From: a virus
Lineage: Duplodnaviria; Heunggongvirae; Uroviricota; Caudoviricetes
IMG/VR virus record: IMGVR_UViG_2124908012_000287
DNA length: 4,797 nucleotides
Reading direction: 5' to 3' (one strand)
The first letter of the stretch is position 1; each line of letters begins with the position of its first letter. Below the pieces are notes generated by a model that searched no databases, had not been told where the DNA came from, and saw only the letters and a program-made list of their open reading frames with translations. A program made the translations under genes and the position numbers. Shown here piece after piece: positions 1,641 through 1,698 of the stretch.

Positions 1641-1693
1641 TTTCTGGTGACGTTTGGCGGTATCAGTTTTACTCCGTGACTGCTCTGCCGCCC
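1641..1693 (+). ncRNA. dicF: DicF small regulatory RNA (about 53 nt), which base-pairs with ftsZ mRNA
   Basis: Sequence TTTCTGGTGACGTTTGGCGGTATCAGTTTTACTCCGTGACTGCTCTGCCGCCC followed by a T5 run matches my recollection of DicF. It lies in an ORF-free stretch between ydfC and dicB, as expected for the processed operon RNA. Exact 5' end is uncertain by a few nucleotides. Confidence 0.75.
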
Positions 1694-1698
1694 TTTTT
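1656..1698 (+). terminator. Intrinsic terminator-like hairpin plus U-run forming the 3' end of DicF
   Basis: GGCGG at 1656..1660 pairs with CCGCC at 1688..1692 (imperfect extended stem GGCGGUAUCAG / CUGCUCUGCCGCC), followed by TTTTT at 1694..1698. The loop is long, so termination is probably partial, allowing read-through into dicB. Confidence 0.5.

What the first reader, a model, noticed from the sequence alone, without database searches (positions are those of the whole stretch)
1641..1698. DicF antisense sRNA embedded mid-operon with its own leaky terminator
The sequence matches the 53-nt DicF RNA, ending in an imperfect hairpin and U-run. It sits inside a protein-coding operon, so its production depends on processing of the long transcript, and termination must be partial for dicB and ydfD to be expressed. 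DicF targets ftsZ mRNA, so together with DicB the operon carries two independent division inhibitors.
Basis: partly seen in the sequence, partly recalled or inferred. Interest (0 to 1): 0.45.

Follow-up and report, generated by a model that had tools for sequence, protein, structure and literature searches.

The report
DicF small RNA in Qin prophage
This is the long-known E. coli K-12 DicF small RNA, exactly where the reference genome annotates it inside the dicB operon of the Qin prophage, so the finding is correct but ordinary; the only fresh point is a conserved folded RNA just upstream that is in no RNA family catalogue I could search.

Summary
Rfam's DicF model (RF00039) matches window 1642-1693 full length at 76.7 bits (cut-off 48, E 3e-16). 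Window 1-3807 is 100% identical to K-12, and NC_000913.3 annotates ncRNA dicF (b1574) at positions that map to window 1641-1693. An imperfect hairpin (1656-1692, about -15 kcal/mol) and a run of five T (1694-1698) follow.

DicF is cut from the dicBp transcript by RNase E (53 nt) and RNase III (190-nt and 72-nt forms). Part of transcription ends at its Rho-independent terminator and part continues into dicB-ydfD. DicF represses ftsZ by base pairing, and DicB is a second division inhibitor. Verdict: already known, low interest.

One thing was found beyond the finding. Directly upstream (1510-1624) lies a roughly 115-nt pseudoknotted RNA domain with no Rfam match. It occurs in about 81% of complete E. 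coli genomes, in lambdoid phages, in P1/P7 and in other Enterobacterales. In 109 of 109 copies a terminator-like hairpin follows it, and DicF is only one version of that hairpin. Published Term-seq data place a strong 3' end 3-4 nt after it. Its function is unknown, and it is not a detectable homologue of HK022 put RNA.

The parts
1..109 (-). dicC, start of the gene (cro-like regulator); the window begins inside it
   Evidence: K-12 annotation mapped onto the window (locus 2879-3109, offset 3000)
193..600 (+). dicA, the CI-like repressor of dicBp
   Evidence: ORF list; annotation; repression shown in PMC10448788
661..689 (+). Predicted dicBp promoter: TTGACC (661-666), 17-nt spacer, TAATCT (684-689); transcription start near 696
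   Evidence: Read from the sequence; inference. A start near 696 puts the published RNase III site +813/814 at about 1508/1509, and 1509-1698 is 190 nt, matching the published long form. The consensus scan did not list this site.
767..1300 (+). ydfA (767-922), ydfB (924-1052), ydfC (1082-1300): promoter-proximal small genes of the operon
   Evidence: Annotation; ORFs
1431..1516 (+). Predicted long duplex (1431-1437/1510-1516 and 1442-1451/1497-1506) that contains the inferred RNase III site giving the 5' end of the 190-nt DicF
   Evidence: Minimum-energy fold of 1301-1867; inverted repeat I3; the site position is my inference from PMC10448788
1510..1624 (+). Conserved pseudoknotted RNA domain, the 5' part of the 190-nt DicF. 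Helices: 1510-1517/1617-1624; 1521-1525/1532-1536; 1537-1540/1576-1579; a variable hairpin around 1549-1567; 1580-1587/1607-1614; pseudoknot 1543-1548/1594-1599
   Evidence: Alignments A2 and A3; pair counts; coordinates; no Rfam match; Term-seq 3' end at window 1627/1628
1641..1693 (+). DicF sRNA, 53 nt; the 5' end is made by RNase E in the sequence AUCAA|UUUUCUGG
   Evidence: Rfam; NC_000913.3 b1574; PMC10448788
1656..1698 (+). Rho-independent terminator of DicF: imperfect hairpin 1656-1692 plus T run 1694-1698
   Evidence: Folds; literature
1701..1852 (+). Long-range stem 1701-1721/1832-1852 closing the dicF-dicB spacer; a likely RNase III substrate. The 72-nt DicF would end near 1712, and the Term-seq 3' end lies at 1843
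   Evidence: Inverted repeat I1, 19 nt at 89% complementarity; 21-bp helix in both the minimum-energy and centroid folds; Term-seq; sub-threshold full-length STnc100 match at 1691-1900. The assignment to RNase III is an inference.
1868..2244 (+). dicB (1868-2056) and ydfD (2053-2244), the genes downstream of the terminator
   Evidence: Annotation

Best explanation
Window 1641-1693 is the dicF gene of the Qin cryptic prophage of E. coli K-12. [quoted passage not shown] Part of transcription stops at the imperfect hairpin plus U5 at 1656-1698. RNase III (inferred site near 1508/1509) and then RNase E (at 1640/1641) trim the 5' side, giving a 190-nt form and then the 53-nt DicF. Polymerases that read through go on to dicB and ydfD; RNase III cleavage in the 1701-1721/1832-1852 stem then gives the alternative 72-nt DicF. 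DicF binds Hfq and pairs, mainly through its 3' half, with the ribosome-binding region of ftsZ mRNA, blocking FtsZ synthesis. It also regulates xylR, pykA, manX and, in EHEC, pchA. DicB independently blocks division through MinC.

Shown here: identity, position, fold and genomic context. Taken from the literature: processing, termination and targets. Inferred: the exact cleavage coordinates in window numbering, and that the terminator is weak because of its interrupted stem, large loop and short U run.
For: Rfam DicF at 76.7 bits, full length. 100% identity to K-12 and exact coincidence with annotated b1574. Operon context ydfABC / dicB-ydfD. Hairpin plus U5. No promoter-like site on the + strand between ydfC and dicB. 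RNase E and RNase III dependence and the absence of an internal promoter (PMC10448788). Termination and the 72-nt form (PMC5069750; PMC9438474). ftsZ pairing shown by compensatory mutations. The predicted intermolecular pairs (DicF nt 25-36 with ftsZ -1..-12, nt 41-52 with -18..-28) match the published model. A Term-seq 3' end at window 1843 shows RNA extending beyond the terminator. The DicF region is present in 4123 of 5426 complete E. coli genomes, with up to 9 places per genome.
Against: Nothing contradicts the identification. Weak points: the hairpin energy alone is only z = -2.0 against shuffles. Duplex and cofold energies with the ftsZ leader are no better than background (263 of 2000 shuffles; 409 of 1489 random windows). 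The held Term-seq tables list no 3' end at the DicF terminator itself; those files may be truncated, and a 53-nt RNA may be lost in such libraries. Termination efficiency was not measured by anything I could run.
Confidence: 0.97

Rival explanations
1. DicF is made from its own promoter just upstream rather than by processing of the operon transcript.
For: None found here. The 190-nt and 53-nt species could in principle be primary transcripts.
Against: No promoter-like site on the + strand in 1300-1868. The 190-nt form disappears without RNase III and the 53-nt form disappears without RNase E. Primer extension and RT-PCR support a continuous transcript from dicBp (PMC10448788).
Confidence: 0.02
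2. dicB and ydfD are expressed from a separate promoter between the DicF terminator and dicB, so the terminator need not be leaky.
For: One earlier study suggested a promoter upstream of dicB (cited in PMC10448788). The Term-seq 3' end at 1843 cannot by itself tell read-through from initiation between 1698 and 1843.
Against: No promoter-like site there on the + strand. The published 72-nt DicF has the DicF 5' end and a 3' end beyond the terminator, which requires read-through. A band was assigned to a ydfABC-dicFB-ydfD transcript, and no internal promoter was found.
Confidence: 0.08
3. Read-through of the DicF terminator is not simply leak. It is set by the conserved structured domain at 1510-1624, acting in cis on RNA polymerase or on terminator folding. 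This would be the same kind of job as HK022 put RNA or an attenuator, without being related to them.
For: The domain always precedes a terminator-like hairpin plus T run: 109 of 109 copies, with the T run 35-82 nt after its end, against 13% or 4.5% of random windows depending on the energy threshold. It sits in leaders of repressor-controlled early operons in P1/P7, cdtI, Rac-like and Qin-like elements. In P1 the terminator hairpin is unrelated in sequence to DicF. The structure is supported by covariation.
Against: A covariance model of the domain does not detect HK022 putL or putR, even at E up to 10. By eye I found no convincing alternative pairing between the domain and the terminator arms, but I did not compute this systematically. 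Several of the terminator classes share GGCGG...CCGCC bases and may be diverged DicF relatives, so some of the linkage could be inherited rather than selected. No functional data exist.
Confidence: 0.2
4. The functional unit is the whole RNA of about 190 nt: a conserved 5' scaffold plus an exchangeable 3' targeting and terminator module. The 53-nt DicF is one processed output, and the scaffold of about 120 nt is a second stable product with its own role, for example protein binding or acting as a sponge.
For: In P1 the domain starts about 25 nt after the Pban start and a terminator follows, which predicts a primary transcript of about 185 nt. In Qin, RNase III produces a 190-nt RNA with an equivalent 5' edge. 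That 190-nt form accumulates in stationary phase. A strong Term-seq 3' end lies at 1627/1628, just after the closing stem, with scores of 4414-5569, comparable to dicA's own terminator. [quoted passage not shown] One variant class keeps the DicF 5' seed UUUCUGGUGA but has a different hairpin.
Against: No experiment addresses the 5' domain. The 3' end at 1627/1628 may only mark exonuclease stalling at a stable stem during decay.
Confidence: 0.3

Closest known systems
DicF RNA (Rfam RF00039; E. coli K-12 b1574)
   Same: Identical sequence, position, terminator and operon context.
   Different: Nothing; it is this gene.
Intra-operonic and 3'-UTR-derived sRNAs made by early termination plus RNase E processing (for example SroC from gltIJKL)
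   Same: Biogenesis by early Rho-independent termination inside an operon followed by 5' trimming (PMC9438474).
   Different: DicF also has RNase III-dependent long forms (190 nt and 72 nt) and is prophage-borne.
HK022 put RNAs (putL, putR): cis-acting antiterminator RNAs
   Same: For the upstream domain only: a folded RNA in the leader of a repressor-controlled early phage operon, upstream of terminators.
   Different: No detectable homology. Model R1 does not hit the put sites. Put RNA is about 70 nt with two stem-loops, whereas this domain is about 115 nt with a multi-helix junction and a pseudoknot. One copy per element was seen in the phage records inspected, not a left and right pair.
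STnc100 (Rfam RF02076), a prophage-associated sRNA family
   Same: The dicF-dicB spacer 1691-1900 aligns to the full model, as does the equivalent region upstream of kilR in phage Rac-SA53.
   Different: Both scores are below the gathering score (34.4 and 43.8 against 47), so these are not members by Rfam's criterion. The family is otherwise reported near Q and late genes of Stx-type prophages (bioRxiv 10.64898/2026.05.13.724894).

Membership tests
DicF RNA (RF00039) | Covariance-model score at or above the curated gathering score (48 bits), full length | tested here: met
   76.7 bits, E 2.7e-16, model positions 1-52 of 52
DicF RNA (RF00039) | Sequence identity and coordinates matching the reference gene b1574 | tested here: met
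   Window 1-3807 is 100% identical to K-12; b1574 at 1649382-1649434 maps to window 1641-1693
DicF RNA (RF00039) | 3' stem-loop followed by a U run (Rho-independent terminator and Hfq-binding module) | tested here: met
   Hairpin 1656-1692 at -15.1 kcal/mol; U5 at 1694-1698
DicF RNA (RF00039) | [quoted passage not shown] | tested here: met
   Annotation of the identical K-12 region
DicF RNA (RF00039) | Base pairing with the ftsZ ribosome-binding region | tested here: inconclusive
   The predicted pairs match the published model, but the energies are not better than background. Experimentally established in PMC5069750.
DicF RNA (RF00039) | [quoted passage not shown] | not testable with these tools
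   Published in PMC10448788. The sequence at 1640/1641 (AA|UUU) fits, from my own knowledge, the reported RNase E preference for cutting before a U-rich stretch; this is an inference.
Partially efficient intrinsic terminator | RNA 3' ends both at the terminator and downstream of it from the same promoter | not testable with these tools
   Published 53-nt and 72-nt forms and Northern bands. A Term-seq 3' end at window 1843. No 3' end at 1693-1698 in the held tables.
HK022 put antiterminator RNA (considered for the upstream domain 1510-1624) | Detectable sequence and structure similarity to putL or putR | tested here: not met
   Model R1, with filters off, finds no match at the HK022 put sites at E up to 10
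HK022 put antiterminator RNA (considered for the upstream domain 1510-1624) | Promotes read-through of downstream terminators by binding the RNA polymerase beta-prime zinc-binding domain | not testable with these tools
   Only positional evidence: it lies in the leader of early operons, always upstream of a terminator
STnc100 (RF02076) (considered for 1691-1900) | Score at or above the gathering score (47 bits) | tested here: not met
   34.4 bits, E 2.4e-5, full-length alignment
Any Rfam 15 family (for the upstream domain) | A match at a permissive threshold | tested here: not met
   No hit at E up to 10 on 1495-1640. No hit over the domain at E up to 5 on 600-2350. No hit over it in the P1 and cdtI loci at E up to 0.01.

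The most novel reading that the evidence does not exclude
DicF is the 3' module of a larger conserved unit. The roughly 115-nt pseudoknotted RNA domain at 1510-1624 is absent from Rfam 15. It was not mentioned in the DicF literature I could read, and P1 and phage records label it only as 'dicF-like region' or as hypothetical proteins. It may be a new class of phage leader RNA that works together with whatever intrinsic terminator follows it. It could set how much polymerase reads through into the early operon, which would make the 'leaky terminator' a regulated one. Alternatively it could act as the scaffold of a modular sRNA of about 190 nt whose 3' targeting part is exchangeable.
Probability: 0.35. 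Interest if true: 0.6.

Novelty: already known. Interest (0 to 1): 0.12.

Why it matters
The finding itself changes nothing: DicF, its biogenesis and its target have been studied since 1989-1992 and revisited in 2016-2023. It is useful as a positive control, showing that the first-stage reader can recognise a known sRNA and its logic from raw sequence. The side observation could matter more. If the conserved domain upstream of DicF controls read-through or is an sRNA scaffold, it would explain why a 190-nt DicF form accumulates. It would also explain why the same block heads early operons in phages as different as P1 and lambdoids, and how toxic early genes (dicB, kil, ydfD) are gated after the repressor is lifted.

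Tried and rejected
(1) Simple terminator scan. It did not list the DicF hairpin. I attribute this to the scan's loop and stem rules, not to the absence of a terminator.

(2) DicF-ftsZ pairing in silico. Whole-molecule RNAduplex and cofold ddG against random 60-nt E. coli windows did not distinguish ftsZ from background. I therefore do not claim computational support for the target.

(3) Put hypothesis for the upstream domain. I located putL and putR in HK022, noticed short shared motifs by eye (GCGCGGCGG; TCAGGWTGA), and then tested with covariance model R1. It found no hit, so homology is rejected.

(4) Protein-coding explanation for the domain's conservation. The spacing between its invariant blocks varies in all three classes modulo 3 (6, 8 and 10 sequences), and lengths range from 131 to 136 nt. 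Rejected.

(5) A structure on the opposite strand or at the DNA level. There are 53 G-U pairs against 14 A-C pairs, which favours an RNA of the + strand.

(6) Riboswitch-like alternative pairing between the domain and the terminator arms. Nothing convincing by eye; not computed systematically.

(7) Literature. Faubladier and Bouche 1994 (PMC205167) and the P1 genome paper (PMC523184) are not held, so an earlier description of the upstream block cannot be excluded. RIL-seq supplements are not held. The transcriptome-wide RNase III papers give no coordinates for this locus in their main text. The Pas/STnc100 preprint concerns a different prophage region.

Full report
WHAT IS THERE. The window was scanned against all Rfam 15 families. 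The only match above a gathering score is DicF (RF00039) at 1642-1693 on the + strand: 76.7 bits against a cut-off of 48, E 2.7e-16, covering all 52 model positions. Megablast against 5,426 complete E. coli genomes shows window 1-3807 to be 100% identical to K-12 strains. The curated reference record NC_000913.3 annotates ncRNA dicF (b1574) at 1649382-1649434, inside 'cryptic prophage Qin'. With the offset fixed by dicA, this is window 1641-1693.

The RNA folds into a 7-bp GC-rich stem, a 1x3 internal loop, a 5-bp stem and a 9-nt loop (1656-1692), at -15.1 to -15.9 kcal/mol, followed by UUUUU. The hairpin alone is only moderately better than shuffled sequence (z = -2.0). The simple terminator scanner did not list it, which I attribute to its interrupted stem and large loop. 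The strength of the identification comes from the covariance model and the identity to the annotated gene.

CONTEXT. The annotation of the identical K-12 stretch gives: dicC (window 1-109, minus strand), dicA (193-600), ydfA (767-922), ydfB (924-1052), ydfC (1082-1300), a 567-nt non-coding spacer containing dicF, dicB (1868-2056), ydfD (2053-2244), a truncated ydfE, and a partial IS2. A 121-nt query centred on DicF finds the region in 4,123 of 5,426 genomes, with up to nine places per genome. PGAP-annotated records show no feature there, so only the curated reference names the gene.

HOW IT WORKS (literature on this same sequence). Ragunathan et al. 2023 (PMC10448788) detect a 190-nt and a 53-nt DicF. 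The 53-nt form requires RNase E and the 190-nt form requires RNase III. Primer extension places the RNase III cut 'between positions 813 and 814', and they find no internal promoter. Northern bands are assigned to ydfABC-dicF and ydfABC-dicFB-ydfD transcripts. Balasubramanian et al. 2016 (PMC5069750) summarise Faubladier et al. 1990. The 5' end is made by RNase E. The 53-nt 3' end comes from Rho-independent termination. A 72-nt form comes from RNase III cleavage of the full-length RNA. They also show direct pairing of the DicF 3' region with the ftsZ ribosome-binding site using compensatory mutations, and further targets xylR and pykA. The review PMC9438474 describes the same biogenesis. DicB inhibits division through MinC.

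WHAT THE SEQUENCE ADDS. No sigma-70-like site lies on the + strand between ydfC and dicB. A plausible dicBp is TTGACC (661-666), a 17-nt spacer, then TAATCT (684-689), with a start near 696. That puts +813/814 at about 1508/1509, and 1509-1698 is exactly 190 nt. This numbering is my inference. The 567-nt spacer is unusually structured (z = -4.1, none of 100 shuffles as stable). Two long duplexes flank DicF. The first is 1431-1451 with 1497-1516, which contains the inferred RNase III site. The second is 1701-1721 with 1832-1852. A 72-nt DicF would end at about 1712, in the left arm of the second duplex.

Published Term-seq tables (Adams et al. 2021, PMC7815308) list a 3' end at genome 1649584, which is window 1843, in the right arm. 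It is scored as not Rho-dependent. This shows RNA extending past the DicF terminator in wild-type cells, although taken alone it could also come from a start site between 1698 and 1843. Those held tables list no 3' end at the DicF terminator itself. They may be truncated, and a 53-nt RNA may be under-sampled.

WHAT DID NOT WORK. Thermodynamic tests of DicF against the ftsZ leader were not discriminating. In RNAduplex, 263 of 2,000 shuffled DicF sequences did as well. By cofold ddG (-7.5 kcal/mol), 409 of 1,489 random E. coli windows did as well. The predicted pairs (DicF 25-36 with ftsZ -1..-12; 41-52 with -18..-28) do coincide with the published model, but I do not count this as independent support.

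THE UPSTREAM DOMAIN (outside the finding). BLAST of the spacer against phage genomes showed that a block of about 120 nt just 5' of DicF (about 1510-1632) recurs without DicF. It lies in the leader of the C1-controlled ban operon of P1 and P7, where P1 annotates a 'dicF-like region'. It also lies downstream of cI in phage cdtI and in Stx2c phages, and between a DicA-type repressor and kil in Rac-like elements. It is found in 4,418 of 5,426 E. coli genomes, in 511 plasmid records, mostly non-mobilizable plasmids of about 85-130 kb that match at the same identity as phage P1, and in more than 100 IMG/VR contigs. It is also found in Citrobacter, Trabulsiella, Erwinia and Izhakiella.

An alignment of 25 diverse copies has long invariant tracts and variable hairpins. 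My structural model has five nested helices plus a 6-bp pseudoknot. On that alignment, 95% of cells are paired, against at most 54% for slid registers. On a second alignment including the distant genera, 94% are paired and 12 pairs change on both sides; none of 500 shuffles reaches that. Two caveats apply. The structure was derived from these sequences, and the second alignment was fitted to the model. Izhakiella changes three consecutive pairs of one stem on both sides. The central hairpin is replaced wholesale but folds as a hairpin in 17 of 19 distinct versions.

G-U pairs outnumber A-C pairs 53 to 14, so the structure belongs to the + strand RNA. The spacing between invariant blocks falls in all three classes modulo 3, which excludes a conserved reading frame. 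Several phage records nevertheless annotate hypothetical proteins across it. Rfam 15 has no match, even at E up to 10.

In 109 of 109 copies with enough flank, a hairpin plus T run follows, with the T run 35-82 nt after the domain's end. The background is 13% of random windows at the loose threshold and 4.5% at the strict one. DicF is the commonest version. The cdtI type has a perfect stem of -21 kcal/mol, the P1 type (GCCCA...TGGGC) is unrelated in sequence, and some types may be diverged DicF relatives. Term-seq reports a strong 'orphan' 3' end at genome 1649368/9, which is window 1627/1628, 3-4 nt after the domain's closing stem. Its scores are comparable to those of dicA's terminator. An Hfq co-IP study noted an enriched interval upstream of dicF (PMC4152368). 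Together with the RNase III 5' end, this suggests a discrete RNA of about 120 nt.

I tested the obvious analogy, HK022 put RNA, by building covariance model R1 and searching the HK022 immunity region with filters off. Neither put site is detected. The domain is therefore not a put homologue. Whether it does a put-like job is untested. The two older papers most likely to have described it are not held.

VERDICT. The finding is correct in both observation and interpretation, and it is textbook material: novelty 'already known', interest 0.12. The most novel reading not excluded is that DicF's terminator belongs to a conserved unit of structured domain plus terminator, of unknown function (probability about 0.35, interest if true about 0.6).

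Noticed in passing
window 1510-1624 (+): A conserved pseudoknotted RNA domain of about 115 nt lies immediately 5' of DicF. It has no Rfam match. It occurs in lambdoid phages, P1/P7 and several Enterobacterales genera, and a terminator-like hairpin always follows it. A strong published Term-seq 3' end lies at 1627/1628. Its function is unknown, and it is not a put homologue.
   Followed up: yes
window 3807/3808: The window is not colinear with any of 5,426 complete E. coli genomes. Bases 1-3807 are Qin, ending at the right end of a partial IS2. Bases 3808-4797 are the ydbA autotransporter pseudogene, about 180 kb away in K-12 and on the opposite strand, where this same base abuts the right end of a full IS2. 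This is either an IS2 x IS2 inversion junction or an assembly mis-join through IS2.
   Followed up: yes
window 1691-1900 (+); stem 1701-1721/1832-1852: The dicF-dicB spacer gives a full-length but sub-threshold match to Rfam STnc100 (34.4 bits against 47). It is closed by a long stem of about 21 bp that fits the published RNase III-dependent 72-nt DicF end (about 1712) and a Term-seq 3' end at 1843.
   Followed up: partly
L006 1490-1723 (Escherichia phage Rac-SA53): Upstream of kilR, another division inhibitor, there is a diverged DicF-like hairpin (41.1 bits, below the cut-off of 48), followed by an STnc100-like region (43.8 bits). The layout of small RNA hairpin, long stem and division-inhibitor gene is thus shared by Rac-type and Qin-type elements.
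   Followed up: partly
phage records H58-H64 and others: The DicF region is now found at 94-99.8% identity in deposited phage genomes, for example PhiR42_1, vB_EcoM-606R7, vB_EcoS-640R1 and HannyBb. A 2016 paper reported no DicF or DicB hits among about 2,000 phage genomes. So DicF is not confined to defective prophages.
   Followed up: partly
window 1641-1693, and the same region in RefSeq genomes: PGAP-annotated E. coli records show no feature over dicF ('none' under the match for all 30 records listed, and no dicF row). Only the curated NC_000913.3 names it. Several phage records place 'hypothetical protein' CDSs over the non-coding structured spacer.
   Followed up: no
window 124-141, 636-653 and 671-687: Related TGTTAG(T/C)-type motifs flank dicA. 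They lie near the dicC-dicA divergent promoters and over the predicted dicBp. They presumably are the DicA operators that the literature describes as resembling lambda OR and OL. Read by eye only.
   Followed up: no
L141, L142, L146: Exact copies of the upstream domain appear on contigs of metagenome-assembled genomes labelled Bacillota, Veillonella parvula and Collinsella. Two of the three contigs are short (2.5 and 5.9 kb; the third is 22.9 kb). Given near-identity to the E. coli sequence, these look like mis-binned Enterobacteriaceae contigs rather than true hosts.
   Followed up: no
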